This document shows, piece after piece, positions 24,126 to 63,225 of a stretch of DNA of 64,000 nucleotides. The stretch is from an uncultured candidatus Porisulfidus sp. (lineage in GTDB: Bacteria > Pseudomonadota > Gammaproteobacteria > Poriferisulfidales > Oxydemutatoraceae), in assembly GCA_965200865.1 (NCBI GenBank), contig CBDAVG010000002.1:1746712-1810711 (forward strand), written 5' to 3'. Position 1 is the stretch's first letter. Each line of letters begins with the position of its first letter. Below the pieces are notes generated by a model that was given only the letters and a program-made list of their open reading frames with translations, had not been told where the DNA came from and made no database searches. A program made the position numbers and the translations under genes.

Positions 24126-24184
24126 TGTTTAACTTCGCTGATTAATGTTATATGATGCCGTATTTTATCACCAATGATGAAATG

Positions 24185-24360
24185 TGGGGCTGTTGAAAAA
24201 GTATCGTCATCGCATGAACCCAACCGCTTGCGCCATTAAATTTAAGAAAATGGTAGGGGCAGAATAAAGCCGCCGATTGAACCAGTAGGTCAATCGGCAT
24301 TTCAATTATCCGCCCCTACGGTGTATGGAATACTTTGTCAACAGCCCCACATTTCAATTT
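24185..24360. repeat. REP-like repeat cluster 6
   Basis: ggggctgttgaaaaagtatcgtcat, gccgattgaaccagtaggtcaatcggc and ccgcccctacggtgtatggaatactttgtcaacagcccc. Confidence 0.8.
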
Positions 24361-25344: not shown

Positions 25345-25640
25345 TGAATGGGACTGTTGAAAAAGTATCGTCATCGCATGAACCCAACCGCTTGCGCCAT
25401 TGAATTTAAGAAAATGGTAGGGGCAGAATAAAGCCGCCGATTGAGACAGTAGTTCAATCGGCAATTTTAATATCCGCCCTACGGTACCGTCCTGCAAAAC
25501 CGTAACCGCTTTGCGCCACAAGATTATGGTTTGCATAAATTTGATGGATGAATGTATAAATCGTGCAAGTACGTCGCGTTAGGGTGGATATATAAATCCG
25601 CCCCTACGGTGTATGGAATACTTTGTCAACAGCCCCGAAT
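25345..25640. repeat. REP-like repeat cluster 7
   Basis: Same unit types as clusters 4 and 6, including gggcggatatataaatccgcccctacggtg. Confidence 0.8.
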
Positions 25641-28350: not shown

Positions 28351-28364
28351 GTCATTATTTAGAG

Positions 28365-28730
28365 CTATTAAAAAAGTATTGTCATTGTAAAAACTCAACC
28401 GCTTGCATCACCAAATTAACGATAACCACCTGTAGGGGAGGGCTAACATGGGACTGTTGAAAAAGTATTTCATGCACCGTAGGGGCGGATTTATATATCC
28501 GCCCTAACCCAACGTACTTGCACGATTTATACATTCATTTCGTTTATGGAAACCAAAACCAAATGGCGCAAAGCGATTGGGTTTGTGCGAGACGGTACCG
28601 TAGGGCGGATATGCAAATCCGCCCCTACCGTTTGCATAAATTCAATGGCGCAAGCGGTTGGGTTCATGCAATGTCGGTACTTCTTCAACAGTCCCATATG
28701 CCCTCCCCAATAGAGTACCGTTCTGCACAA
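28365..28730. repeat. REP-like repeat cluster 8
   Basis: ctgtaggggagggctaacatgggactgttgaaaaagtat and tagggcggatatgcaaatccgcccctaccg, among others. Confidence 0.8.
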
Positions 28731-28755
28731 GTAAAATATTTATTCATCCAATTAT

Positions 28756-28830
<75 letters not shown>

Positions 28831-52539: not shown

Positions 52540-52569
52540 AGCATTGAATTTTACCCATTAGTAGAGATT

Positions 52570-53130
52570 AAAGCAAGGCGATATGGGGCTGTTGAAAAAA
52601 TATCCTTGAGCCGTAGAGGAGGGCTAACATGGGACTGTTGAAAAAGTGTCTGCATTAGTACATTCCCCTCCTGTGGAGGGGTGGCAGGCGAAGCCTGACG
52701 GGGTGGTTGTGGTGGTTCTGCACAAAGTCACGCCGTTTGTGCTACTGCAACAAACGGCGGTTCTATTTTTCAACAGCCTCACATGCCCTCCCTAAAGTAC
52801 CGTTCTGCACCAGGAGAACCGCTTGCGCCACTTGGTTTTGGTTCCCATAAATTGGATGGCGTACGAAGGATAATGTACGACAAGCAACCATGTTGAGGTT
52901 CTGCACAATGTCACGCCGATTGATTTTGATATATGTGATGTTTTTAACGAACACAGCATTTAGATTTTGCACAAAGTTACGCCACTTGACCTACTGGCTC
53001 AAGTGGCGGGTTCACTCGGCGATAATCGGCGATTCTACTTGTGCAGACGCAACGCGTTTCGGGAGGGCATGTTAGCCCTCCCCTACCAGTTGCGAGACTT
53101 TTTCAACAACCTCGACATGAGTTACCCGTG
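52570..53130. repeat. REP-like repeat cluster 15
   Basis: Multiple units: ggagggctaacatgggactgttgaaaaagtg, cccctcctgtggaggggtggcaggcgaagcctgacggggtgg, a cgccgtttgtgctactgcaacaaacggcgg hairpin and cacttgacctactggctcaagtggcgg. Confidence 0.85.
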
Positions 53131-53597: not shown

Positions 53598-53643
53598 AAA
53601 TATCTCCTTTTATCGTGGTTGATAACAAACAATATCAAGATAG

Positions 53644-53717
53644 GATAGACGACAGGGCTTGAACCCATAGTCTCAGGAACCACAATCGTGCGCTCCATCA
53701 ACCGAACTACGCCTACC
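53644..53717 (-). tRNA. tRNA-His (GTG) with G-1:C73
   Basis: The reverse complement G|GTAGGCG TA GTTC GGTTGATG GAGC G CACGA TTGTGGT TCCTG AGACT ATGGG TTCAAGC CCTGT CGTCTAT C folds as a cloverleaf. All stems pair (several G-U wobbles), the anticodon is GUG, and the extra 5' G pairs with discriminator C, the hallmark of tRNA-His. The 3' end reads CCTA rather than CCA. Confidence 0.6.
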
Positions 53718-53888
53718 ATTTCCAACGCCATTATAAACTGGAACACTGAGGTTATTGTGACAAACATGGGACAAATAGCGGAAAATTTTCATGGTTTTGC
53801 AGGGTGTCAGGTCGCTTATGCTGACGGCTTGATCGGCGATACTTTTCGTGAGGCTAGTTTGGTGGTGAGCCTTGCTATGATAGAGGGG

Positions 53889-54704
53889 TTAGCTTTCTGT
53901 TGTAGTTTGATCACTTTCCTTGTTAATCCGAGGCGCATCCTTGTATGCTGTAGAAAGGTTCCAGAGAGAAAAATTTATTATTTGGCTATAAGGCATAATA
54001 AGCCCCGCTTCTTCTCCAAGCTCTTCTTTACTGAATACCGGATATCTATCAGTCCAATCAACTTTTCTTCGCTCATCTCTATATCCACTAATAATAGGCA
54101 CTATTTTAATTGCAGGTTCAATTCTTGAACTTTTTGTGTAATCAACTAATAGCCCAACATATACTTTGCGGTTACTCAATGTAACAAATATAAGTTTTCT
54201 ATGCCAAGAATAACAACAATTGTGAAATGTACTAGGTGTTGGATCATCAAAATAATTATTCCTGATCCAGGCAGAGAACCAACCTAATGCTGCAGAAAGA
54301 ATAATAGAAAAGAATAATTGAAGAAGCTCGTGAAACCATTGTTGTTTAGGAAAAATGTCTATTAAAACATAGTATGGTATCGCAAAAAACACCACCGCAA
54401 AAAGATATTCCCAGCCTTCTAATTGATAGTAGTTCCGGTTTATATATCTATTTATAGATCTGTTATAAAACCAGAGACCTACTATAGAAAGAATAACGGA
54501 AAAGAACAATTGAAGAAGTTCGTAAAACCATTTTTGTTTAGGGAAAACGTCTATTAAAACATAGTATGGTATCGCAAAAAACACCACCGCAAAAAGATAT
54601 TCCCAGCCTTCTAATTGGTAGTACTTCCGATTTATAGATCTGTTATAAAGCGAGAGACCTACTATGCCTGGAACAACCCAAATTAATAACTCTATATCAA
54701 ACAT
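53889..54704 (-). CDS. membrane protein with an internal tandem duplication and a soluble C-terminal domain of unknown function, in an AT-rich island
   Basis: 271 aa. The segment YNRSINR..YYQLEGWEYLFAVVFFAIPYYVLID.FPKQ.WF.ELLQLFFS.ILS occurs twice, with near-identical DNA. Confidence 0.6.
   Translation of the reverse strand: MFDIELLIWVVPGIVGLSLYNRSINRKYYQLEGWEYLFAVVFFAIPYYVLIDVFPKQKWFYELLQLFFSVILSIVGLWFYNRSINRYINRNYYQLEGWEYLFAVVFFAIPYYVLIDIFPKQQWFHELLQLFFSIILSAALGWFSAWIRNNYFDDPTPSTFHNCCYSWHRKLIFVTLSNRKVYVGLLVDYTKSSRIEPAIKIVPIISGYRDERRKVDWTDRYPVFSKEELGEEAGLIMPYSQIINFSLWNLSTAYKDAPRINKESDQTTTES
54296..54700. repeat. intragenic direct tandem duplication (2 copies, ~195-205 bp each, >90% identical) inside CDS 53889..54704
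   Basis: Both copies carry the same run of about 80 bp, gtctattaaaacatagtatggtatcgcaaaaaacaccaccgcaaaaagatattcccagccttctaattg. Confidence 0.8.
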
Positions 54705-54869
54705 TGAAAGTTATGTGTCATGTATCTACCAGACTTATGTCCAAAATCTATGCGTTTTTACAGAAAATACTGCTTTTTATAAGTGGTAGCAGTGTAAGGG
54801 ATTTTTTAGAAACTAAAACTATTTCTTAATTCATGGTGTTGAATCAAGGAATATAGAGAAAATAATTAT

Positions 54870-55145
54870 TTATTTACCTCCCTGACTATCAGGTATTAAT
54901 TTTTGAACTTCTTCTATTGCCGCTCTATTCTCTTCAATGATCTCACTGATTGGGCGAGGAATTTCGCCATAAGTTCCTTCAATGTGCATGATTTTATTAA
55001 ACCATCCCTTTTCTTTTTTCTTGGACACCTCCTCTATTATCCCCTCATAGGATTTTGTTTCAATAAGCTTACCCTCTTTATTAGCATCGCGGTAAGTTTC
55101 ATCCGAAGGGTCAACATTAAATTGGTCATTTATTTGGTAACTCAT
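54870..55145 (-). CDS. hypothetical 91 aa protein; candidate toxin partner (PanT-like) of the upstream Panacea-domain antitoxin
   Basis: Begins 4 bp after the stop of the Panacea-domain gene on the same strand. Sequence is charged and helical with no recognisable toxin motif. Confidence 0.45.
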   Translation of the reverse strand: MSYQINDQFNVDPSDETYRDANKEGKLIETKSYEGIIEEVSKKKEKGWFNKIMHIEGTYGEIPRPISEIIEENRAAIEEVQKLIPDSQGGK

Positions 55146-55148
55146 TTT

Positions 55149-55610
55149 CTATCCTTTTGCTTTATCCTTCAATTCACAAAAGTGATTTTTAATCACACTT
55201 TCGGGGATAGCTCTCCGAGGGAGCTTTTCACCTTTATATGTTTTATGCCATGGCGATCCTCTCTTATGAGTTAGAGCAGATAGTTCTACTCCTTTGTATT
55301 TTTTGTAATGATTTACTACAGCATTCACTAATTCTTTCATATCATCAGAAAAGTTAGCATCTTTATCGTTTGCAAGACCTTCAAGGCAATTAGAAGACAA
55401 TGAGCTGTCTTTATGCTTGAGCGCATAATATAGCTCTGGGATTACCGGGCCGTATCTCCACGCTTCAATATTCTCTCTAAATAATATTTCGTCATGGTAG
55501 GTTAAATACCACCCATACGATAAGTAGCACAGCTTGATTAGCTGCAATAAATCAAATCCTTCGTCGCGTTTTAATATATGATTTGCAACATTAAATACTG
55601 TCGTAGTCAT
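55149..55610 (-). CDS. Panacea-domain (DUF4065) antitoxin, SocA/PanA-like
   Basis: DLLQLIKLCYLSYGWYLTYHDEILFRENIEAWRYGPVIPELYYALK matches the DUF4065 core (KLqKLlY...gw.L.......lf.e.feAW.yGPV.p.lY). Confidence 0.7.
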   Translation of the reverse strand: MTTTVFNVANHILKRDEGFDLLQLIKLCYLSYGWYLTYHDEILFRENIEAWRYGPVIPELYYALKHKDSSLSSNCLEGLANDKDANFSDDMKELVNAVVNHYKKYKGVELSALTHKRGSPWHKTYKGEKLPRRAIPESVIKNHFCELKDKAKG

Positions 55611-56059
55611 TGCCAGTCGGTACTTCTAAAAAAAATGACAGATGTCTCCTTCCGAGACTACTGCCGGTAATGTTCAATTTATTAGTTTTTCTATATTTGA
55701 GTTTATTTGCCGGCTGTTTTAATTACTACTTGAAGTGTTGCCAGCTTTAATAGATTTATGTGTTGATATTATTATTATTATTTTGATTTGTTCTCTTTTA
55801 ATTAAATTTTTCATCTTGTTTCTCCGTAAGTAGTCATCTTAGGGTCTCTATATTGATAGGATTATAAGGCCTCTCAATATACTAATTTGTTCAAGATGTA
55901 AGGTTATTATGATTCGCACATTATGTCAAGGATTATTATGCGGGATGGCCTAATAATTTTCAATGAAAATGCACTGCATGTGGCCTATAAATGTTTGTAT
56001 ACAGGCTGTTTTTTTTATCATCGCCCGAAATTTGAGGGAAACTAATTATCATGCATTTT

Positions 56060-56135
56060 ATACATGCAGGGGGGCTATTATCCCCCCTACTCCCACGGTT
56101 GTCCCCCCGTCAGGCGGGGGCTACCCCCCCTTCAC
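56060..56135. repeat. diverged REP type-B unit with G/C-tract hairpins
   Basis: ggggggctattatcccccc, ccccccgtcaggcgggggctaccccccc and ttcacaggagggaaatg. Compare the canonical ccaccccgtcaggc...cccctccacaggaggggaatg. Confidence 0.5.
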
Positions 56136-56249
56136 AGGAGGGAAATGGCAATGGGGCGGCGGCTGAGGTAAGCACCCAACATGCGTGGGAAAGGGAGTTG
56201 TATCTTGAATAATGCCAGATACATATTGGACTCTTTAGAACCTAATCTT

Positions 56250-56279
56250 CCCGCTAGAAAAAGTACTTTTTCTAGCGGG
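56250..56279. repeat. perfect 30 nt palindrome (13 bp stem, GTAC centre) upstream of the IS481-family transposase
   Basis: cccgctagaaaaagtactttttctagcggg. It could be a hairpin terminator or insulator, or the IS end. Confidence 0.5.
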
Positions 56280-56308
56280 AAAACCCTCAAAAAATCAAGG
56301 TAGATAAC

Positions 56309-57354
56309 ATGAAATATCAACACCTCGGCTATCGCATTAAAGGGTTTTATAAAATAGCCTCTTTTGCTAATAAGTGGGAGGCTATGATGGCAACTGATGC
56401 TAAACAAAAACTTGAGGCTTTAGAGTTCTGGAAAAACATGGTTTAATTGCGGCTCTGGACTTTTCTAAGGTGAGCCGTGCGACCCTATATCTCTGGAGAA
56501 AGCACTTTGACGAGGGCGGCGTGTCGGCTTTGCAGGATGCAAGTAAAGCACCTCACCAGCACCGCCGTCGCAATTGGTCTACTCGCATCACTGACGAGAT
56601 TAGACGACTGCGATACAGCTATCCCAATATGGGTGCTCCGAAGATTTATTACTTCTTAAAGCCGTGGTGCGATGAACGAGGATTGAAGTGTCCGAAGCCT
56701 CGCACCATCGTACGATTGATTGCCGATGCACCCGATAAAATGCGCTGCTCACCGCCGACTATCTCTGGCAAAACACGCAAAAGCAAGGCTTCTAAGCCAC
56801 GCGATCGTATTGACAAAGATGCCAAAGCCCTATTTCCTGGAAACTGCGTGGCTATAGACACCATCCATTATTTCGTTGAGCAAACCCGCTATTATCTGTT
56901 TACTGCGATTGATCACTACAGCCGTTTTGCCATGGCTATCACGTGCCGACGTGCAAGCAGTAAAAATGCTGTGGCATTTGCAAAGTTGGTGCATATGGTA
57001 TTCCCTGACAACATCTCTCAGGTATTGACTGATAACGGCAGCAAGTTTCAGGGAGACTTCGATGCTTATCTACAACAACATAACATTAAACACTGTTATA
57101 CTTATCCTCGTTGCCCGAAAATGAATGCCATAGACGAGAGATTTAACCGCACTATTCAAGAGGAGTTTGTCGCACATAATGTGGATATTCTAGAGAAAGA
57201 TTTAGCATTGTTTAACGACGTATTATTTGAATATCTTGGGCGGTATAACTTCAGAAGACCGCACCAAAGCCTAGGCTATAAAACACCGGCACAACAGCTT
57301 GCTTCTTTTTGCCCTTATTTGTCTAATATGTCATGGCATCGTACATATCTTTGA
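56309..57354 (+). mobile_element. IS481-family transposase gene with a -1 frameshift at a GGAAAAAC run (~56440), either inactivated or recoded
   Basis: The N-terminal piece 56309..56446 (HTH: ...DAKQKLEALEFWK) continues in the -1 frame into ORF 56470..57354, whose integrase core has a DDE catalytic region including TDNGSKFQG. Confidence 0.75.
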
Positions 57355-57456
57355 CTGTATTGCTGCAAAGTGCTAGGATTAGCACATTTATACTATCATT
57401 TAGAAAAAGACCCAAATGCAAAATCATACTACTGCACGGACTAGTTAGGCGCAGAT

Positions 57457-59307
57457 ATGTCGAAACTTTATTTCAGGGTCGGTCCAATGGAGGGATTTAC
57501 CGGAAGTGACTTAGCAGATAAAAAAGAAGGCTATACAAATCCAATTAGAGAGTTGCTGCAAAATGCTCTAGATGCTTCCCACGAAGCACATAATAATGAG
57601 TGTAAAGTAAATATATACATTGAAACAATCTCGGCTCATCAAATACCGCATATTAAAGAATATAAAGAGGTCTTGCGTAAAGCCATTGAAACAGCAGAAA
57701 AACAAGGCAGTTATAATGAAAACTCAAAGCAAAGGGTGGCACTCATTAAAGAGGCTCTACACAAAGAAAAGCTAAAAGTCTTGTTGTTTGCCGATGACGG
57801 TATAGGAATGGAACAAAATCGTTTGGATGCCATACTGACCGGAGGCGTTAGTATTAAAGGCGATGAAAAATCAGGTGGTTCTTTCGGGGTGGGCAACTTA
57901 TCCAGCTATTCACTCTCATCGCTGTGCTATGTGCTTTATGCTACCAAGTATAAGGACAACGGTGCTACAAAAACATTGTTTACTGGTTCACCAATTTTAG
58001 CCGGGCATCAAGATGGAGAAACTCAGCGAGTCAAAAGAGGTAGGATTGTAGCAAAGGAGCCTAAAGATCCAGTGAATCCAAAGTTCACTTATCTCAACGA
58101 TCCTCCCCCTTTTATCAAACCTAAGATGCGTGAATTTAATACTGGCACCATCATAGCCATTCTAGGTTTGTCCGAAGATTGGAATGAGGATGCCGAATAC
58201 GCCATCGTTAGCAACTTCTTCCATGCTATTCCCTATGGTCATTTAAGCATTACCATCCATAAGAACGGTAGTTCAGAGAAAATCTCTTATGCTCGAGTTG
58301 AACAACTAATCAGTAGAAAAAAAGAGGGTAAAAGAGCAATGGGAGACAACATACTATCCGGCAAAACAGTCTTTCAAGCATGGCAGACGCTTCAAGAACA
58401 AGGCTCACAAAAAACCATTGAGCTTAGCAATGCGGATAAAGTTTGTGTTTTTATTAAAAACGACAAAAGCACCAATTCCGCTATCATACTGGTTAGGAAC
58501 GGGATGGTCGTCGCTCGCCATGACTCTATGTTATCTGTGGACATAGACAGGCTAAGAAAAGACACCGATTTTGAGCCTTTTACTGCGATTATTGATATTG
58601 ATAAAAAAGATGCCCCGGAGTTGTTTCGGCTGGTGAAAAATGCCGAAGGCCCGTATCACAATAAGTTGCAGAAAGGTGTGCTGATTAAAAAAGATGAAAA
58701 AGAACTGAAAAAACTACTAAAAGAATTAAGTGAGAAGATAAAGGAAGGTTACCTGAAAAAAATAGAGAGAGATTCTTTCAATTTGCCGTTGTTCACCATC
58801 CCTAGCGAAGCCCAAGAAAATGCCGGCGGTGTCAAAAAATCAGATGGGCAAGTAGAAGAGGCTTCGCCAGCACCTGGATCAAAGAAACCACCCAAACCTC
58901 AAAAGGAGCAAGTAGCGAGAGAAGATAGCGGAAACAACTCCGCACCCACTGTTATTTCCAGAGTGCTGGAGTCAAAGACTGCCGCTAGATATACAGAAAA
59001 TGGCAGCATATGGGAAGTGCAATTAAGAATTACTCCCACACAACAAGAAAATGATAAAGACAATGCCTACTTGTCAATAGGTTTAGGGGATGATAGCGAT
59101 GGCGAGCAATGCACCTACCTTGACTTCATAACAGCCGAATTGAACGGCGATAAAATTGAGATTTTTTATGACAATAAAAAGCAGATTAAATTGGGTTCGT
59201 TAAGCAAAGATACACAATACGATGTGGTCGCAAAAATCAAAAAACCGAATGATATCGGAGATGTGAAAGTGGCATTGCAACCACTGCTAGGGTTGAAACG
59301 ACGCTGA
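57457..59307 (+). CDS. GHKL/Bergerat-fold ATPase (HATPase_c_3, MORC/MutL-like N-terminal domain) with coiled-coil middle and unknown C-terminal domain; first gene of a 3-gene cassette
   Basis: Motif I ELLQNALDA, motif II FADDGIGME, motif III GGSFGVGN; 616 aa. Confidence 0.75.
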   Translation: MSKLYFRVGPMEGFTGSDLADKKEGYTNPIRELLQNALDASHEAHNNECKVNIYIETISAHQIPHIKEYKEVLRKAIETAEKQGSYNENSKQRVALIKEALHKEKLKVLLFADDGIGMEQNRLDAILTGGVSIKGDEKSGGSFGVGNLSSYSLSSLCYVLYATKYKDNGATKTLFTGSPILAGHQDGETQRVKRGRIVAKEPKDPVNPKFTYLNDPPPFIKPKMREFNTGTIIAILGLSEDWNEDAEYAIVSNFFHAIPYGHLSITIHKNGSSEKISYARVEQLISRKKEGKRAMGDNILSGKTVFQAWQTLQEQGSQKTIELSNADKVCVFIKNDKSTNSAIILVRNGMVVARHDSMLSVDIDRLRKDTDFEPFTAIIDIDKKDAPELFRLVKNAEGPYHNKLQKGVLIKKDEKELKKLLKELSEKIKEGYLKKIERDSFNLPLFTIPSEAQENAGGVKKSDGQVEEASPAPGSKKPPKPQKEQVAREDSGNNSAPTVISRVLESKTAARYTENGSIWEVQLRITPTQQENDKDNAYLSIGLGDDSDGEQCTYLDFITAELNGDKIEIFYDNKKQIKLGSLSKDTQYDVVAKIKKPNDIGDVKVALQPLLGLKRR

Positions 59308-59328
59308 AAAATCTAAAGAGTTACTGCA

Positions 59329-60198
59329 GTGTCAGATAATCTAATACTTGATTTTCCGATTCTAAGAGAGGACAGCAGTGATTTCCCGGCAACAATCGCT
59401 TACGAGGTCAAAGCCGAACAAAGCAACGGAAAACTACACCTAAGACACAGCCTCAAAGGTCGTTCATTTATTTCTCGTTTGCTGGAGCAAGGCAAAGCTA
59501 AATTTTCCGTTAGATTGCTTTACAAAGATAGTTTCGAGCGACAACATCACTTGTGTGACGAAAGCATCCTGCCCATGCAAGAGGGAATCATAGCCATCAC
59601 GCAAACCATACCAATGGACTTTTCTTATGCTCCAGAAGTTATGCCCAGCATTATCGTTTTGGAGGATGTGAAAGTCACCGTGGATGCTTCATCAGGGTTG
59701 ACTGATTTCTGGAGACCAGGCGAGTCCTTTTTCATACCTAGATATGCCCGCATTGCCATAGAGCCGAAATTAACCTTCTCTAAAGGCGATGTATATCATT
59801 TGATGAAACTAGAGCATGACGAAGACCTCGACAGCGGAGAGATGAGAGTGGAAGTCAACGAATATGCCGGAGAGGGTGAGATTCCCGTGTCCTTGCTATG
59901 TGGTAGCGATGTTTATGATCAACTAATAAAAGCCTCCCCAACAGAACCAAGAGACTCCAACCAGTCAATGGGTTCGGCTATCGCTACTCAAGCATTGTGT
60001 GCCACTTATGCATATATACACAATTTAGAACCCGACAATAAAGACGAAGTTGGCGGCGTGCTATTGAACCATCTGCAGATGTTAGAAGAGAACACCAGAC
60101 AAGACTGGAAAGATGAAGACTTCAACCCAAGTCTAGCTGCTACGAAAATGAATCCCTATGTCTTGCGTGTATTCAAAGCAGGATCCGATGATGAGTGA
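59329..60198 (+). CDS. hypothetical protein (289 aa), second gene of the GHKL cassette
   Basis: Starts 21 bp after the GHKL gene stop on the same strand and has codon usage similar to its neighbours; no known motif. Confidence 0.6.
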   Translation: MSDNLILDFPILREDSSDFPATIAYEVKAEQSNGKLHLRHSLKGRSFISRLLEQGKAKFSVRLLYKDSFERQHHLCDESILPMQEGIIAITQTIPMDFSYAPEVMPSIIVLEDVKVTVDASSGLTDFWRPGESFFIPRYARIAIEPKLTFSKGDVYHLMKLEHDEDLDSGEMRVEVNEYAGEGEIPVSLLCGSDVYDQLIKASPTEPRDSNQSMGSAIATQALCATYAYIHNLEPDNKDEVGGVLLNHLQMLEENTRQDWKDEDFNPSLAATKMNPYVLRVFKAGSDDE

Positions 60199-61027
60199 AT
60201 ACAGAAAACTTGATGAAAAAGTTTGGGGAGATTTTGGTAAGAAGCTAAACAAGAACAAAGGCTCGGAGGAGCAAAGAGAATTTCTCAGTGCTTGTAAATC
60301 AGGGAAAGATGATTTCCTGACATATCTTAAGCATAATAACTTGTCGGATAGTACTAACAAAGGTGAGCCAGTGAGCTTTATGTACCGATTTACTGAGAGA
60401 GAGTTCATCTACCCGCCTTACGATACTCAGGAAAAAATCTGGCAAGCGTTTAAGGAGCTACCCGATGAAGTAACATGCAGGTGTGGTTTCTGGGGATATG
60501 TGATTATCAAAATGATTGAGGATGGGCAGATCCAACCGTCTTATTTGGCATCGGAATCTAGTGACGCGAATAGCACAGGTAGTTATATGATTTACAATGC
60601 CCTAACATCCGCTGATACAGAAGAAATAGACGGTTGTGTTAGAAGGAGCTTACGCGCCATGTGCAATCCGGCACCAAGAGGGAAAAAGATCGTATTCAAT
60701 GACTTTTATCTCGGAAAGACTTACTGGCGATGGCGGTGGGCGCATAAAATGTCCGACATTATGGAGCCTGACCTCACACTAGAAATTCTGGATGAAAAAT
60801 ATTATGCTAGGGTTTCTGAAAAAATGCATAGCGGGAAAAGCTATATAAGCTCAAAAAACATATTCGGTGGACTATTGCTGTTCCTTGAAAAAAACAGAGA
60901 AGTTGGCAAGGAAAAATTGAAAGCAATCATTGACCAAATTGGATACCTGAGCGTATGGAAAGCACTTGAAGCACAAACCCCACAATCTAACCAAAAAGAA
61001 ATAGAAAAAATAGCCGAGCGGCTGTAA
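60189..61027 (+). CDS. hypothetical protein (~279 aa), third gene of the GHKL cassette
   Basis: Its start ATGATGAGTGA overlaps the stop of the preceding gene, indicating translational coupling. It contains a CRCGFWGY Cys pair and no known motif. Confidence 0.6.
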
Positions 61028-61029
61028 CG

Positions 61030-61560
61030 CATCGGCACAACTACAACCGCTCCGCGCCATTGAGCTTACAAAACTGGTAGGGGCGGAATAAAGCCGCCGA
61101 TTGGGCCAGTAGGTCAATCGGCGTGACTTTGTGCACAACCTGAACATGTTGTGCAAAACCACAATGTTAAACGAAATGTAGGGGCGGACTCATATGTCCG
61201 CCCTAACGCGACGTATTTGCACGATTTATACATTCATCCATCAAATTTATGCAAACCATAATCTTGTGGCGCGTAGCGGTTGGGTTTGTGCAGGACGGTA
61301 CCGTAGGGCGGACATGCGAGTCCGCCCCTACGGTTGGTTATCATAAATTTGAGGGCGCAAAGCGGTTACGTTTGTGCGATGACGGTACTTTTTCAACAGT
61401 CCCAAATGGATTGATTGTGCAGACGCAACGCGTTAGGGCAGAATAAAGCCGCCACTTGAGACAGTAGGTCAAGTGGCATTTCAATTGTCCACTCCTGCGG
61501 CATATGAAATACTTTTTCAACAGCACCAATACCCCCCCAAACACACTATTTCCGCACATC
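61030..61560. repeat. REP-like repeat cluster 16
   Basis: ggggcggaataaagccgccgattgggccagtaggtcaatcggcgtgac, tagggcggacatgcgagtccgcccctacgg and others. Confidence 0.85.
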
Positions 61561-61665: not shown

Positions 61666-62406
61666 ATGGAACAAACTAAATATTTATCATTTACACAAGA
61701 TGCCGTTCTCGAACGGTTTTTTACAAGCAATAAACAAGTACTCACCTCTCTGCTTAGAGAGTACTTCTCTATTACTGACAAAGTTTTGGATGTCATTGTT
61801 GTAGATACTGGAAGAGAAAAAACATTCGCTCGTTTTAGGCAAACATCCAATCCAGAAGATTTGCCAGATATTAATCGTGTCGTATTAGACCTGCTGGTGA
61901 AATTAAGTAGCGGGAAAAAAATTGGCATACAGCTACAAGTTGCTATAAACGAGGAAAAAAACTTCCGGGATCACATGATAACTGACTGGACTTTTCTGCA
62001 TTGTTATGACCAAAACATATGGGCAGAGGCTAGTAAGATCCATCCAACCTACTCGTTGATATTTGCACACTTCACAGTGTTTGAAGAAGCGCAAGATTAT
62101 ATAAGCGAACTAGCGTTGAAGCATAGTACACATCCAGAAAAAGATTATATAAGCACAATAACGTTGAGGCTCTGTAAATATCCAGCCCATGGTATAGATG
62201 CGGGTTTAAGGATGGTAGCAGTGGAACTGAATAAATTCAACAAAGGTTGTTCTGAACTGATTAATATGCAGGATAGATGGAATTATATTCTGAAACACTC
62301 GGCGGACTTGACAACCGAACAAGTAGCGCATCTATCACAAGACGAAGAGACAAAAATGGTATTGGAACATCTAGAGGAAATATCAAAAGATCGGAGTGTG
62401 GACTGA
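61666..62406 (+). CDS. hypothetical protein, possibly a PD-(D/E)XK nuclease-family (Rpn/YhgA-like putative transposase) relative
   Basis: 246 aa. VVDTG...IGIQLQV...F..R...Y resembles the D...(E/Q)xK core of the TIGR01784 family only weakly. Flanked by REP clusters. Confidence 0.4.
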   Translation: MEQTKYLSFTQDAVLERFFTSNKQVLTSLLREYFSITDKVLDVIVVDTGREKTFARFRQTSNPEDLPDINRVVLDLLVKLSSGKKIGIQLQVAINEEKNFRDHMITDWTFLHCYDQNIWAEASKIHPTYSLIFAHFTVFEEAQDYISELALKHSTHPEKDYISTITLRLCKYPAHGIDAGLRMVAVELNKFNKGCSELINMQDRWNYILKHSADLTTEQVAHLSQDEETKMVLEHLEEISKDRSVD

Positions 62407-62789: not shown

Positions 62790-63225
62790 GCTATCAAAAA
62801 AGTAACATCATCGCCCAAACGTAACCGCTTACGCCATTAAATTTACGAAACTGGTAGGGGAGGGCTAACATGGGACTGTTGAAAAATAGAACCGCCGATT
62901 GAGCCAGTAGGTCAATCGGCGTAACATTGTTCAGAACCTTAACAACCACCCCGTCAGATAGAACCGCCGATTGAACCAGTAGGTCAATCGGCGTGACCTT
63001 GTGCAGAACTTTAACTTGATTGCTAAATTCGTATATTATCCTTCGTACGCCATCCAATTTATGGGAACCAAAACCAAGTGGCGCGTAGCGGTTGGGTTTG
63101 TGCAGGACGGTACCGTAGGGCGGACATGCGAGTCCGCCCCTACCGTTTGCATAAATTCAATGGCGCAAGCGGTTGAATTTTTGCAATGACGGTACATTTT
63201 CAACAGCCCCACTTCCCTTAATATC
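62790..63225. repeat. REP-like repeat cluster 17
   Basis: Contains a ~125 bp segment identical to one in cluster 11, and tagggcggacatgcgagtccgcccctaccg. Confidence 0.85.

What the first reader, a model, noticed from the sequence alone, without database searches (positions are those of the whole stretch)
57457..61027. Translationally coupled three-gene cassette led by a GHKL (Bergerat-fold) ATPase, a candidate undescribed defence-type system
A 616 aa protein carries all three Bergerat ATP-binding motifs (ELLQNALDA, DDGIGME, GGSFGVGN) of the MORC/MutL-like HATPase_c_3 type, then a coiled coil and an uncharacterised ~110 aa C-terminal domain. It is followed on the same strand by two ~285 aa proteins with no recognisable motifs. 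Gene 2 starts 21 bp after gene 1, and gene 3 overlaps gene 2 through ATGATGAGTGA, which points to operon-level coupling. The cassette lies in an AT-rich island next to a Panacea-type antitoxin pair and an IS481 element and is bounded by REP clusters, the usual setting for anti-phage or anti-plasmid modules. It follows from established work that bacterial MORC-like GHKL ATPases are embedded in R-M-like conflict systems. This particular three-gene combination matches no named system I can recall.
Basis: partly seen in the sequence, partly recalled or inferred. Interest (0 to 1): 0.78.

Follow-up and report, generated by a model that had tools for sequence, protein, structure and literature searches.

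The report
GHKL ATPase operon missing its sulfurtransferase
Three tightly linked genes led by a MORC-like ATPase are real and conserved. They are the surviving core of a four-gene operon whose first gene, a sulfur-transfer-type enzyme related to DNA phosphorothioation enzymes, was deleted in this sponge-symbiont lineage, and the core is a distant relative of an untested candidate anti-phage cassette (PDC-M33).

Summary
The three ORFs, the GHKL motifs and the translational coupling are all real. The interpretation needs two corrections.

1. The trio is not unrelated to everything catalogued.
- Gene 1 hits PADLOC's untested candidate PDC-M33A (E 6e-27).
- Gene 2 is a remote PDC-M33B homologue (hhalign 93-96%).
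- Gene 3 belongs to a family that reaches DUF6339/PDC-M33C only through intermediates.
- Natural gene2-gene3 fusions exist.

2. In about 35 other loci (marine and sponge-symbiont Gamma- and Alphaproteobacteria, Nitrospirota, Nitrospinota) the unit has four genes.
- A PP-loop ATP-pyrophosphatase (g0) with DndC/SspD-like features lies directly upstream of the ATPase.
- The window keeps only the last 14 nt of g0 (57431-57444), next to the retained g0 leader and promoter.
- g0 was lost independently at least three times, while genes 1-3 stay intact (dN/dS 0.03, 0.015 and 0.22).
- One divergent locus adds an IscS-type cysteine desulfurase next to g0. Others pair the trio with DUF262 (GmrSD-like) proteins.

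Best reading: this is an ATP-driven GHKL-B-C nucleic-acid-handling core of a modification-linked conflict system, here without its modifying enzyme. Function is untested. I rate it a new variant of a known (candidate) kind, interest about 0.6.

The parts
57345..57426 (+). Conserved upstream element. It is the ancestral leader that lies upstream of the PP-loop gene g0 in intact loci, and here it is joined almost directly to g1.
   Evidence: 88% identical to L028 6602-6683, which lies about 195 nt upstream of g0 there. Also present in L001 7848-7930 and in L019.
57351..57379 (+). Sigma-70-like promoter TTGACT-17 nt-TAGGAT with an extended -10 TG, inside the conserved element. It is the likely promoter now driving g1-g3.
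   Evidence: 9/12 match. The number of promoter-like sites in the region is not above chance. The weight comes from conservation of this stretch in L028, L019 and L001.
57431..57444 (+). Remnant of the deleted PP-loop gene g0: ACTGCACGGACTAG, its last codons (N)-C-T-D-stop.
   Evidence: Aligns to the 3' end of g0 in L028 (8113-8126), L030 and L010, where g0 ends ...PCNCTD*. No other g0 sequence is found anywhere in the window by tblastn.
57457..59307 (+). g1: GHKL (Bergerat-fold) ATPase, 616 aa. It has the GHKL domain, a middle domain, a charged helical segment, a Lys/Pro-rich linker and a conserved C-terminal domain of about 110 aa. It is a remote homologue of PDC-M33A.
59329..60198 (+). g2: 289 aa, GTG start. 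Beta-sandwich (FN3/Ig-like) domains plus a C-terminal helical part. It is a remote homologue of PDC-M33B.
60188..61027 (+). g3: 279 aa (or 278 aa from 60191). All-alpha protein with an Arg/Trp-rich conserved core. It is a probable divergent member of the DUF6339/PDC-M33C superfamily. Its start overlaps the g2 stop.
61030..61500 (.). REP-like repeat cluster forming the downstream boundary of the cassette.
   Evidence: families D2, D4, D6; inverted pairs I3, I4, I10-I12. Copies are scattered through the window.

Best explanation
The three genes are an intact operon encoding the ATPase-B-C core of a PDC-M33-type conflict system.

- g1 is an active GHKL ATPase.
- g2 (beta-sandwiches plus helices) and g3 (all-alpha, basic and aromatic conserved core) work as a pair. 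They are fused into one protein in some bacteria.
- In the marine clade to which this copy belongs, the ancestral unit has four genes. A PP-loop ATP-pyrophosphatase (g0) lies immediately upstream of the ATPase. It carries an SGGRSS loop, three conserved Cys and a C-terminal CxC dyad, which is the DndC/SspD-like layout.
- This lineage deleted g0 cleanly, kept its promoter region, and has kept g1-g3 under purifying selection.

Inferred mechanism:
- The GHKL dimer acts as an ATP-gated clamp or switch on nucleic acid.
- The B-C pair supplies substrate binding or recognition.
- The core recruits an exchangeable enzymatic partner. In full systems this is a sulfurtransferase that adenylates and then thiolates (or otherwise substitutes) nucleic acid, as DndC, SspD and TdpC do (TdpC recalled from memory, not checked here), fed by a cysteine desulfurase. 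In other branches the partner is a DUF262/GmrSD-like protein.
- In this window the core stands alone, like Firmicute PDC-M33. It probably still works as a modification-independent module, or with a partner encoded elsewhere.

Shown: gene structure, homology links, the deletion, co-inheritance and selection.
Inferred: complex formation, a nucleic-acid substrate, sulfur chemistry and a defence role.
For: Real genes, coupled as an operon.

GHKL motifs invariant.

Link to PDC-M33:
- g1 hits PDC-M33A at 5.8e-27. BLASTP gives 24% identity over 444 aa, E 6e-17. hhalign gives 99.1%.
- True PDC-M33 trios on Lactococcus and Ligilactobacillus plasmids have the same order and sizes. They lie beside AlwI and AbiG or inside a type I R-M locus.
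- PDC-M33 is defined as a three-gene cassette.
- A g2 superfamily profile matches PDC-M33B at 93-96%, E 2.6e-7 to 1.9e-9.
- The g3 profile finds 266 representatives, including g2+g3 fusions. These hit PDC-M33B/C and Pfam DUF6339.

Four-gene unit:
- g0 lies directly upstream of g1 in 15 of the 19 GTDB loci with enough upstream DNA (in two more g0 is IS-disrupted or separated from g1 by an IS, and in two it is absent), and in all 10 informative JGI contigs. It is also there in L002, L007, L028, L029, L030 and L057.
- Pairwise distances of g0 against g1-g3 correlate at r = 0.82-0.86.

Nature of g0:
- Invariant SGGRSS plus C130, C316xxC319 and C411xC413.
- PADLOC SspD at 1e-10, and weak DndC and BrxP hits.
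- Weak PAPS_reduct hits in 9 of 17 members.
- Phage 'PAPS reductase family' proteins at 3e-9.

Deletion in the window:
- The syntenic locus L028 has g0. The window keeps only its last 14 nt, next to the g0 leader.
- Junctions differ in L019, and g0 is broken by an IS in L013.
- The g1 tree is ((window,L001),L028),L019.

Selection: window against L001 gives dN/dS of 0.029 (g1), 0.015 (g2) and 0.22 (g3) at dS of about 0.1.

Sulfur link: L054 carries g1-like, g2-like, g3-like and g0-like genes, then an overlapping IscS-type cysteine desulfurase (E 1e-101 to IscS, 2e-66 to DndA, 3e-62 to SspA).

Alternative partner: DUF262/GmrSD_N next to the trio in L056 and L058.

The parallel with DndC+DndD+DndE and SspD+SspC+SspB, and with DndD-DndE cores that lack DndC, is described in PMC10853773.
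Against: - No component has a recognisable nuclease or other effector fold.
- No experiment exists for PDC-M33 or DUF6339. No paper mentions either.
- The g3 to DUF6339 link is weak by direct profile-profile comparison (E 0.017-0.03).
- The similarity of g0 to SspD and DndC is local and below curated thresholds. PP-loop plus IscS pairs also serve tRNA thiolation.
- The cysteine-desulfurase link rests on one contig.
- Immediate neighbours across 25 loci are mostly unrelated housekeeping or transposase genes, so there is no strong defence-island signal.
- No relatives were found on viral contigs.
- If g0 marked self DNA against a g1-g3 restriction activity, its repeated loss should be toxic. The simple R-M analogy therefore does not fit.
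Confidence: 0.5

Rival explanations
1. The system is a pure nucleic-acid modification machine, a Dnd/Ssp-like analogue. g0 (with IscS) is the only catalytic part, and g1-g3 only target or deliver it. In this window the trio is therefore a functionless leftover on its way to decay.
For: - g0 is present in nearly all intact loci and co-evolves with g1-g3.
- A cysteine desulfurase is fused into the operon in L054.
- No effector fold is seen in g1-g3.
- Other signs of erosion occur elsewhere: an IS inside g1 in L014 and a g2 frameshift in L027.
Against: - g1 and g2 show strong purifying selection between two g0-less genomes (dN/dS 0.03 and 0.015 at dS of about 0.1).
- All three ORFs are intact and all GHKL motifs are kept.
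- The promoter element is retained.
- g0 is lost independently at least three times with the trio spared.
- Bona fide PDC-M33 trios and the DUF262-linked trios exist without any PP-loop gene.
Confidence: 0.2
2. The target is RNA, not DNA. g0 plus a cysteine desulfurase thiolates tRNA or another RNA, as ThiI, MnmA and TtcA do, and the GHKL-B-C core is an RNA-handling or regulatory module.
For: - PP-loop enzymes with Fe-S-type cysteines working with IscS are the hallmark of tRNA thiolation (established knowledge).
- g0 falls below every curated DndC and SspD cut-off.
- A profile of g0 finds no solved DNA-modifying PP-loop enzyme.
Against: - The distribution is sporadic and driven by horizontal transfer, with insertion at different sites. 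This is not a conserved housekeeping pattern.
- The only significant defence-library hit of g0 is SspD.
- The closest annotated relatives are phage PAPS-reductase-family proteins sitting in DNA replication and recombination modules.
- Relatives of the trio are embedded in R-M loci or joined to DUF262/GmrSD-like DNA-modification readers.
Confidence: 0.1
3. The cassette serves a mobile element (maintenance, transposition targeting or exclusion) rather than host defence.
For: - Transposases and IS elements are frequent next to the cassette: rve, IS66, IS1595, DDE_Tnp_1 and PDDEXK_2.
- PDC-M33 sits on conjugative or mobilisable plasmids.
- The unit is compact and self-contained, and is inserted between housekeeping genes.
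Against: - No integrase, relaxase or transposase is consistently linked: 161 Pfam families were found among 144 flanking genes.
- No terminal repeats of the cassette itself were seen.
- The IS elements differ from locus to locus and sometimes disrupt the cassette.
Confidence: 0.07
4. g1 is an Hsp90/sacsin-like chaperone, with g2 and g3 as co-factors in a housekeeping protein-folding role.
For: Weak sub-threshold NCBIfam hits of g1 to the sacsin N-terminal domain (3e-6, 27.5 bits against a cut-off of 50) and to an HSP90 family model (2e-4).
Against: - The family is tiny: about 80-190 clusters among 5.8 billion.
- It is patchy across phyla.
- It is absent from most genomes, lies in variable regions, is plasmid-borne in Firmicutes, and is linked to PP-loop, DUF262 and R-M genes.
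Confidence: 0.03

Closest known systems
PDC-M33, a PADLOC v2 'phage defence candidate' (Payne et al., bioRxiv 10.1101/2024.01.29.577857). It was predicted by guilt-by-embedding and is untested.
   Same: - Three genes in the same order, with overlapping or adjacent ORFs and near-identical sizes (655/286/273 aa against 616/289/279 aa).
- The A protein is homologous over the GHKL, middle and helical regions.
- The B protein is remotely homologous.
- The C protein is probably homologous through intermediates that reach DUF6339.
   Different: - The sequences are so divergent that the PADLOC B and C models and Pfam DUF6339 do not detect g2 or g3, so PADLOC would not call the system.
- The C-terminal part of g1, about 170 aa, does not align with PDC-M33A.
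- The marine clade carries an extra PP-loop gene that PDC-M33 lacks.
- The window copy is not embedded in an R-M, BREX or DISARM locus.
DndABCDE and SspABCD DNA phosphorothioation modules (as summarised in PMC10853773)
   Same: In the full relatives the logic matches:
- a PP-loop ATP-pyrophosphatase with a Cys triad and a Cys dyad (g0, like DndC and SspD);
- an ATPase;
- small non-catalytic partners;
- an IscS, DndA or SspA-type cysteine desulfurase in L054.

Cores without the PP-loop enzyme also occur, as reported for DndD-DndE.
   Different: - The ATPase is GHKL, not an ABC/SMC type (DndD) or an Orc/Cdc6 AAA+ type (SspC).
- g2 and g3 show no similarity to DndE, DndB or SspB.
- g0 is far below the DndC and SspD family thresholds.
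- No phosphorothioate chemistry has been shown.
- In this window the PP-loop gene is absent.
MORC and paraMORC GHKL ATPases of restriction-modification operons (Iyer, Abhiman & Aravind 2008, PMC2292703)
   Same: A GHKL ATPase with intact motifs in a horizontally mobile, conflict-type context. The best Pfam match is HATPase_c_3, the MORC/MutL-type model.
   Different: - None of the defining partners is in the operon: no SF-II helicase, restriction-fold or HNH nuclease, or methylase.
- The Pfam score is below the gathering threshold for this protein.
- The S5 domain was not tested.
VcSduA, a paraMORC3-type Shedu protein (GHKL ATPase fused to a DUF4263 nuclease). It is experimentally validated as anti-phage (PMC12137116).
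   Same: An N-terminal GHKL ATPase is proposed to act as a dimeric clamp that controls a downstream activity. It shows that GHKL-led systems can be true defence systems.
   Different: It is a single protein with a PD-(D/E)xK nuclease. The window's system has no nuclease domain and uses two separate partner proteins.
Tiamat (TmtA), a single-gene defence system in PADLOC
   Same: A weak local hit of g1 to the N-terminal GHKL part of TmtA (E 0.0076; 7.7e-4 for the L007 homologue).
   Different: The hit covers only the ATP-binding motifs. TmtA is a single protein (model length 1370) with a different architecture.

Membership tests
GHKL (Bergerat-fold) ATPase superfamily | Motif I / N-box (E..N..D) | tested here: met
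   ELLQNALDA at residues 32-40. E32, N36 and D39 are invariant in 61 homologues.
GHKL (Bergerat-fold) ATPase superfamily | Motif II (DxGxG) and motif III (GxxGxG) | tested here: met
   D113-x-G115-x-G117 and G141, G144 and G146 are invariant.
GHKL (Bergerat-fold) ATPase superfamily | Motif IV (conserved G-T) | tested here: met
   NTGT at residues 228-231, with G230 invariant. The assignment is by position only.
GHKL (Bergerat-fold) ATPase superfamily | ATP binding and hydrolysis | not testable with these tools
   Needs biochemistry.
Pfam HATPase_c_3 (MORC/MutL-type) / MORC-paraMORC | Score above the Pfam gathering threshold | tested here: not met
   20.5 bits against a cut-off of 25 for the window protein. 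Many homologues carry a precomputed PF13589 hit.
Pfam HATPase_c_3 (MORC/MutL-type) / MORC-paraMORC | S5-fold domain after the GHKL domain | not tested
A profile of g1 finds no PDB sequence.
Pfam HATPase_c_3 (MORC/MutL-type) / MORC-paraMORC | Operon partners: SF-II helicase, nuclease or methylase (PMC2292703) | tested here: not met
   None is present in the cassette in any of about 40 loci.
PDC-M33 (PADLOC candidate) | The A protein matches the PDC-M33A model | tested here: met
   E 5.8e-27, 92.6 bits, residues 30-440. hhalign to a true PDC-M33A gives 99.1%. The true member scores 538 bits, so the window protein is a distant relative.
PDC-M33 (PADLOC candidate) | The B protein is detected by the PDC-M33B model | tested here: not met
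   No hit at E <= 1 for g2.
PDC-M33 (PADLOC candidate) | The B protein is homologous to PDC-M33B (remote) | tested here: met
   A g2 superfamily profile against true PDC-M33B gives Prob 93.4%, E 2.6e-7 over 198 columns. With remote members only it gives 96.3%, E 1.9e-9. The N-terminal parts of the fusion proteins hit PDC-M33B at about 6e-6.
PDC-M33 (PADLOC candidate) / Pfam DUF6339 | The C protein is a DUF6339/PDC-M33C member | tested here: inconclusive
   - Direct: no Pfam or PADLOC hit for g3, and hhalign gives E 0.017-0.36.
- Indirect: proteins found by the g3 profile at E 1e-27 to 1e-50 hit DUF6339. P0311 scores 26 bits, above the gathering threshold of 23.2; P0355 and P0303 score about 18.5-19 bits. 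The fusion proteins (P0355, P0344, P0311, P0339) also give weak PDC-M33C hits.
PDC-M33 (PADLOC candidate) | Gene order A>B>C on one strand, tightly packed | tested here: met
   Window: 21-nt gap, then an 8-11-nt overlap. True PDC-M33 in L031 and L032 has overlapping ORFs of 655/286/273 aa.
PDC-M33 (PADLOC candidate) | Embedded in or adjacent to R-M, BREX or DISARM loci (the basis of its prediction) | tested here: not met
   No such genes are next to the window cassette. Its neighbours are a transposase, a Panacea pair, PDDEXK_2 and AAA_16.
PDC-M33 (PADLOC candidate) | Demonstrated anti-phage activity | not testable with these tools
   None is reported in the searched literature.
Dnd/Ssp-type DNA phosphorothioation module | PP-loop sulfurtransferase (DndC or SspD) in the operon | tested here: not met
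   - It is absent from the window. Only a 14-nt remnant survives.
- In relatives g0 is present, but it reaches SspD only at 1e-10 to 5e-5 locally, and DndC at 0.03.
Dnd/Ssp-type DNA phosphorothioation module | Dedicated cysteine desulfurase (DndA or SspA) | tested here: not met
   None is in the window or in the four-gene loci. It is present only in the divergent locus L054. The Aminotran_5 gene next to g1 in L001 is a histidine/serine decarboxylase.
Dnd/Ssp-type DNA phosphorothioation module | DndD (ABC/SMC) or SspC (AAA+) ATPase, and DndE or SspB DNA-binding subunit | tested here: not met
   The ATPase is GHKL. g2 and g3 have no PADLOC Dnd or Ssp hits and no fold match to them.
Dnd/Ssp-type DNA phosphorothioation module | Phosphorothioate in DNA | not testable with these tools
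   Needs LC-MS/MS or iodine cleavage.

The most novel reading that the evidence does not exclude
The complete relatives of this cassette consist of the PP-loop g0, the GHKL ATPase, and the B and C proteins, with an IscS-type desulfurase in one branch. They may be a previously unrecognised, third architectural class of nucleic-acid sulfur (phosphorothioate-like) modification machinery, alongside Dnd and Ssp/Tdp (Tdp recalled from memory, not checked here). In this class a GHKL clamp replaces the DndD ABC or SspC AAA+ ATPase. The same GHKL-B-C core would be a reusable chassis that also pairs with DUF262/GmrSD-like readers, or works alone as PDC-M33. The window would then be a natural 'modification-minus' derivative that is still kept by selection.
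Probability: 0.3. Interest if true: 0.85.

Novelty: new variant of a known kind. Interest (0 to 1): 0.6.

Why it matters
If the inference holds, several things follow.
- An uncharacterised PADLOC candidate (PDC-M33, containing DUF6339) would be tied to the chemistry of DNA phosphorothioation.
- GHKL/MORC-type ATPases would be shown to serve as the motor of such machines.
- A modular core (ATPase plus a B-C pair) would be defined that swaps enzymatic partners.

The data also offer a natural experiment. One sponge metagenome sample holds closely related symbionts with and without the PP-loop gene, and their long-read modification signals could be compared directly.

For genome annotation, the result shows that this trio is missed by current defence finders. 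It also shows that the unit to clone is four genes, not three.

Tried and rejected
- **Direct family searches of g2 and g3** (Pfam, NCBIfam, PADLOC) gave nothing at E <= 1.
- **Sequence and profile searches of g1, g2, g3 and g0 against PDB chains** gave nothing meaningful. A true PDC-M33A also has no solved relative.
- **Foldseek of g3 against viral structures** found nothing.
- **The afdb50 library** was unavailable.
- **Viral contig scan for g3 relatives** found none.
- **Aminotran_5 gene next to g1 in L001.** I considered it as a possible DndA-like desulfurase and rejected it. It is a histidine/serine decarboxylase.
- **DndB gene near the cassette in L002/L003.** I considered it as a conserved partner and rejected it. 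It is absent from the closest relatives L024 and L025.
- **IS-mediated loss of g0.** I considered that the upstream rve transposase caused the deletion, but this is not supported. The g0 leader lies between the IS and g1, and the deletion is a clean excision of about 1.43 kb.
- **AT-rich island claim for the cassette itself.** Rejected.
- **ORF start at 60158 for g3.** Rejected.
- **Literature searches** for PDC-M33, DUF6339 and PAPS reductase + GHKL + defense found no papers.

Full report

Yes. The mechanical ORF list gives three ORFs:
- g1, 57457-59307 (+), 616 aa.
- g2, 59329-60198 (+), GTG start, 289 aa.
- An ORF ending at 61027 whose homologues all begin at M(M)SEY. This places the true g3 start at 60188 or 60191, giving 279 or 278 aa.

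The g1 stop and the g2 start are 21 nt apart, with an AAAGAG Shine-Dalgarno-like site. The g2 stop lies inside ATGATGAGTGA, with AGGA upstream of the g3 start.

The quoted motifs sit at residues 32, 113 and 140 of g1. In an alignment of 61 homologues the diagnostic GHKL residues are invariant: E32, N36, D39, D113, G115, G117, G141, G144, G146 and G230.

All three proteins have full-length homologues. About 188, 81 and 83 clusters were found among 5.8 billion. Many lie on the same contigs.

- The cassette itself is not AT-rich. It is 41.7% GC against a window mean of 43.7% (sd 2.9). The AT-rich stretch (36.5% GC) is 53720-56460, beside a tRNA-His gene.
- The 'IS481' ORF is an rve/rve_3 + HTH_32 transposase. 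Its family is unresolved.
- The Panacea domain and the REP-like clusters are confirmed.

**2. Where does the window come from?**

The window is 97% identical over the cassette to a chromosome of an uncultured Candidatus Porisulfidus sp., a sponge symbiont (OZ241323.1). The sequence upstream of g1 differs between the two, so the window is from a close relative and not from that record.

**3. The unit is four genes elsewhere.**

Contexts fetched for distant homologues show an extra gene of about 405-440 aa directly upstream of the ATPase. I call it g0. tblastn over all loci gives the following picture:

| Source | Finding |
|---|---|
| 20 GTDB species loci | One is cut at the contig start. g0 abuts g1 in 15. 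In two it is IS-disrupted or separated from g1 by an IS. It is absent from two, both Porisulfidus (one of them the same locus as L001). |
| JGI metagenome contigs | g0 abuts g1 in all 10 contigs with enough upstream DNA |
| ENA contigs L002, L007, L028, L029, L030, L057 | g0 present |

Hosts span Gamma- and Alphaproteobacteria, Nitrospirota and Nitrospinota, mostly sponge-associated or marine.

Features of g0:
- An invariant PP-loop (VKFSGGRSSGMML).
- Invariant C130, C316xxC319 and a C-terminal C411xC413 in the motif ...PCNCTD.
- Its significant library hit is PADLOC SspD (1e-10 for L002). It has weaker DndC, BrxP and PAPS_reduct hits, all below curated thresholds.
- tblastn finds phage 'PAPS reductase family' proteins at 3e-9. 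These sit in phage replication and recombination modules.
- Pairwise distances of g0 correlate with those of g1-g3 (r = 0.82-0.86), so the four genes are inherited as one unit.

**4. The window's copy lost g0 by deletion.**

Locus L028 comes from the same sponge sample as L001 and is 84% identical to the window. It is syntenic with the window: molybdopterin oxidoreductase, glyoxalase, Panacea gene, cassette, AAA_16 and PDDEXK_2. It carries g0.

- Window 57345-57426 matches the region upstream of g0 in L028.
- Window 57431 onward matches from the last 14 nt of g0 (ACTGCACGGACTAG, that is (N)CTD-stop).
- About 1.43 kb has therefore been excised cleanly.
- The retained leader contains a TTGACT-17-TAGGAT promoter-like site.

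A second Porisulfidus genome (L019) lacks g0 with a different junction. It keeps a degenerate 45-nt remnant. The g1 tree is ((window,L001),L028),L019, so at least two losses occurred.

In a Halioglobus genome (L013) g0 is broken by an ISL3-like insertion while g1-g3 are intact.

Between the two g0-less genomes (window and L001), dN/dS is 0.029 for g1, 0.015 for g2 and 0.22 for g3, at dS of about 0.07-0.12. L001 shares the left part of the junction and then has a REP insertion. I read this as one shared deletion followed by later change. That reading is an inference.

**5. What the trio is related to.**

*g1.* It hits PADLOC model PDC-M33A (E 5.8e-27, residues 30-440).

*What PDC-M33 is.* It is one of 145 untested 'phage defence candidates' predicted because they are embedded in BREX, DISARM or type I R-M loci. 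It is defined as a three-gene cassette with 98 RefSeq instances.

*True PDC-M33 loci.* tblastn of g1 against plasmids found Lactococcus lactis and Ligilactobacillus salivarius plasmids carrying GHKL(655) + 286 aa + 'DUF6339 family protein'(273).
- They lie beside AlwI and AbiG, or inside an hsdS-hsdM/MmeI cluster.
- They score 538, 212 and 159 bits on the PDC-M33A, B and C models.
- g1 aligns to that A protein at 24% identity over 444 aa (E 6e-17), and hhalign gives 99.1%.

*g3.* A profile of g3 searched over 1.84 billion representatives found 266 proteins. These include full g2+g3 fusions (P0355, P0344, P0410, P0417; about 580 aa) and shorter fusions.
- The g2 profile matches their N-terminal halves at 1e-10 to 3e-16.
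- They hit PDC-M33B (about 6e-6), and weakly hit PDC-M33C and Pfam DUF6339. P0311 scores above the gathering threshold.
- For g3 the direct profile-profile link stays weak (E 0.017-0.03). I call its DUF6339 membership probable, not proven.

*g2.* A broadened g2 profile aligns to true PDC-M33B with 93-96% probability.

**6. Partner enzymes vary.**

| Locus | Gene content |
|---|---|
| L054 | g1-like, g2-like, g3-like, g0-like (332 bits; PP-loop VIKFSGGRSSG; ends CECTD), then an overlapping IscS-type cysteine desulfurase (E 1e-101 to IscS, 2e-66 to DndA, 3e-62 to SspA), then a B-C fusion |
| L056 and L058/L059 | The trio with homologous DUF262/GmrSD_N proteins, on different sides of the trio, and no PP-loop gene |
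| L055 | A B-C fusion beside an AAA_15/AAA_21 ATPase, with no GHKL gene |

The recurring element is therefore the GHKL-B-C core, or even B-C alone. The enzymatic partner changes.

**7. Mechanism.**

*Shown:* an intact, selected operon; an active-looking GHKL ATPase; B and C linked by gene fusion; ancestral linkage to a PP-loop enzyme with the Cys pattern described for DndC (three Fe-S cysteines plus a dyad; PMC10853773); and linkage to a cysteine desulfurase in one branch.

*Inferred:*
- The GHKL dimer is an ATP-gated clamp on nucleic acid, as proposed for MORC, paraMORC, MutL and topoisomerase VI-B (PMC2292703).
- B-C binds or recognises the substrate.
- The core positions a partner enzyme. 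In full systems the partner adenylates and thiolates nucleic acid, in parallel with DndC+DndD+DndE and SspD+SspC+SspB.

The same review notes that DndD-DndE cores often lack DndC. This mirrors the g0-less trio here and PDC-M33.

Repeated loss of g0 with retention of g1-g3 argues against a simple scheme in which g0 protects self DNA from a g1-g3 restriction activity. It also argues, though less strongly, against the trio being a dead leftover.

I put about 0.5 on this modular-core reading. The rivals are:
- A functionless remnant of a pure modification machine, about 0.2.
- An RNA-thiolation system, about 0.1.
- A mobile-element function, about 0.07.
- A chaperone, about 0.03.

**8. Context.**

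Three genes on each side of the cassette in 25 loci gave 161 Pfam families among 144 proteins, with no conserved neighbour. They are a mix of housekeeping genes, transposases, Panacea, Fic and AAA_16.

The cassette is a self-contained insert. It sits, for example, between aroA and hisD in L004 and between ilvD and folate genes in L029. A defence-island signal in the marine clade is modest. It is clearer for PDC-M33 proper and for L056. No relatives were found on viral contigs.

**9. Novelty and limits.**

No paper in the searched library mentions PDC-M33 or DUF6339, or a PAPS-reductase + GHKL combination. The library lacks most subscription journals.

- The trio is a very divergent member of a catalogued but untested candidate kind.
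- The PP-loop (and IscS) association and the exchangeable-partner pattern appear to be undescribed.
- I rate it 'new variant of a known kind'.

Limits:
- g1 and g0 were not modelled because of the prediction cap.
- afdb50 was unavailable.
- The cysteine-desulfurase link rests on one contig.
- The rest of the host genome could not be searched for a g0 paralogue.
- Nothing about function has been tested experimentally.

Noticed in passing
window 53643-53716 (-) and 53720-56460: A tRNA-His gene (only 36 bits in Rfam, against 74 for the tRNA-Phe at 28755-28830) sits exactly at the edge of the only truly AT-rich segment (36.5% GC). That segment holds a 271-aa membrane-like ORF and the Panacea pair. 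It looks like a tRNA-adjacent islet, and it is conserved in the syntenic locus L028.
   Followed up: partly
window 54294-54452 and 54486-54644: A 159-nt direct duplication (92% identical) lies inside ORF 53889-54704 (271 aa). It gives an internally repeated, hydrophobic protein with no family assignment.
   Followed up: no
window 52560-53100, 61030-61500, 62790-63170 and many other sites (e.g. 1100-1460, 18240-18790, 24180-24350, 25350-25640, 28360-28730): Several families of REP-like palindromic elements of 35-100 nt are scattered through the window. They are shared with related genomes. One such element was inserted at the g0-deletion junction in L001.
   Followed up: partly
window 56470-57354 (+): An rve/rve_3 transposase ORF with a GTG start and an HTH that looks N-terminally short. 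It is absent from the syntenic locus L028 and from L001, so it is a recent insertion just upstream of the retained g0 leader.
   Followed up: partly
window 61666-62406 (+); L030 9365-17950: A PDDEXK_2 (Rpn/transposase-like) gene follows the cassette. In L030 five paralogues of this family are arrayed within 9 kb downstream of the cassette, interleaved with an AAA_16 gene.
   Followed up: no
L001 17811-20821 (beyond the window end): About 7 kb downstream of the cassette in the related Porisulfidus chromosome there is a second, unrelated GHKL gene (647 aa, clear HATPase_c_3) whose end overlaps the start of a DNA cytosine methylase gene. This is a classical MORC/paraMORC-methylase pair.
   Followed up: no
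L057 (same 33.8-kb contig as L030): One organism carries two paralogous four-gene cassettes on one contig. In the second, more divergent one, g1 is split into 92-aa and 518-aa ORFs. This is either a frameshift or a 3x-coverage assembly error.
   Followed up: partly
L055 493-4222: A g2+g3 fusion protein (P0344, 584 aa) stands without any GHKL gene, divergently next to an AAA_15/AAA_21 (ABC-type) ATPase. The B-C module may therefore work with other ATPase classes.
   Followed up: no
L056 192-5619; L058 1-4258; L046 3351-3680: DUF262/GmrSD_N genes flank the GHKL-B-C trio in a divergent branch, upstream in L056 and overlapping downstream in L058. A weak DUF262-like hit also follows g3 in the marine contig L046.
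   Followed up: partly
L002 13738-20670: Downstream of the cassette in an alphaproteobacterial contig lies a separate cluster: PAPS_reduct (271 aa), two unknown genes, DUF2201 and a 796-aa ParB_N protein. A DndB-family gene lies upstream. This is another modification-type island that is unrelated in sequence to g0.
   Followed up: no
L014 6988-8259; L027 10001-10737: Other erosion events occur in the family. An insertion of about 1.27 kb lies inside g1 in a Halieaceae MAG. An apparent frameshift and N-terminal loss affect g2 in Ca. Zeuxoniibacter abyssi.
   Followed up: partly
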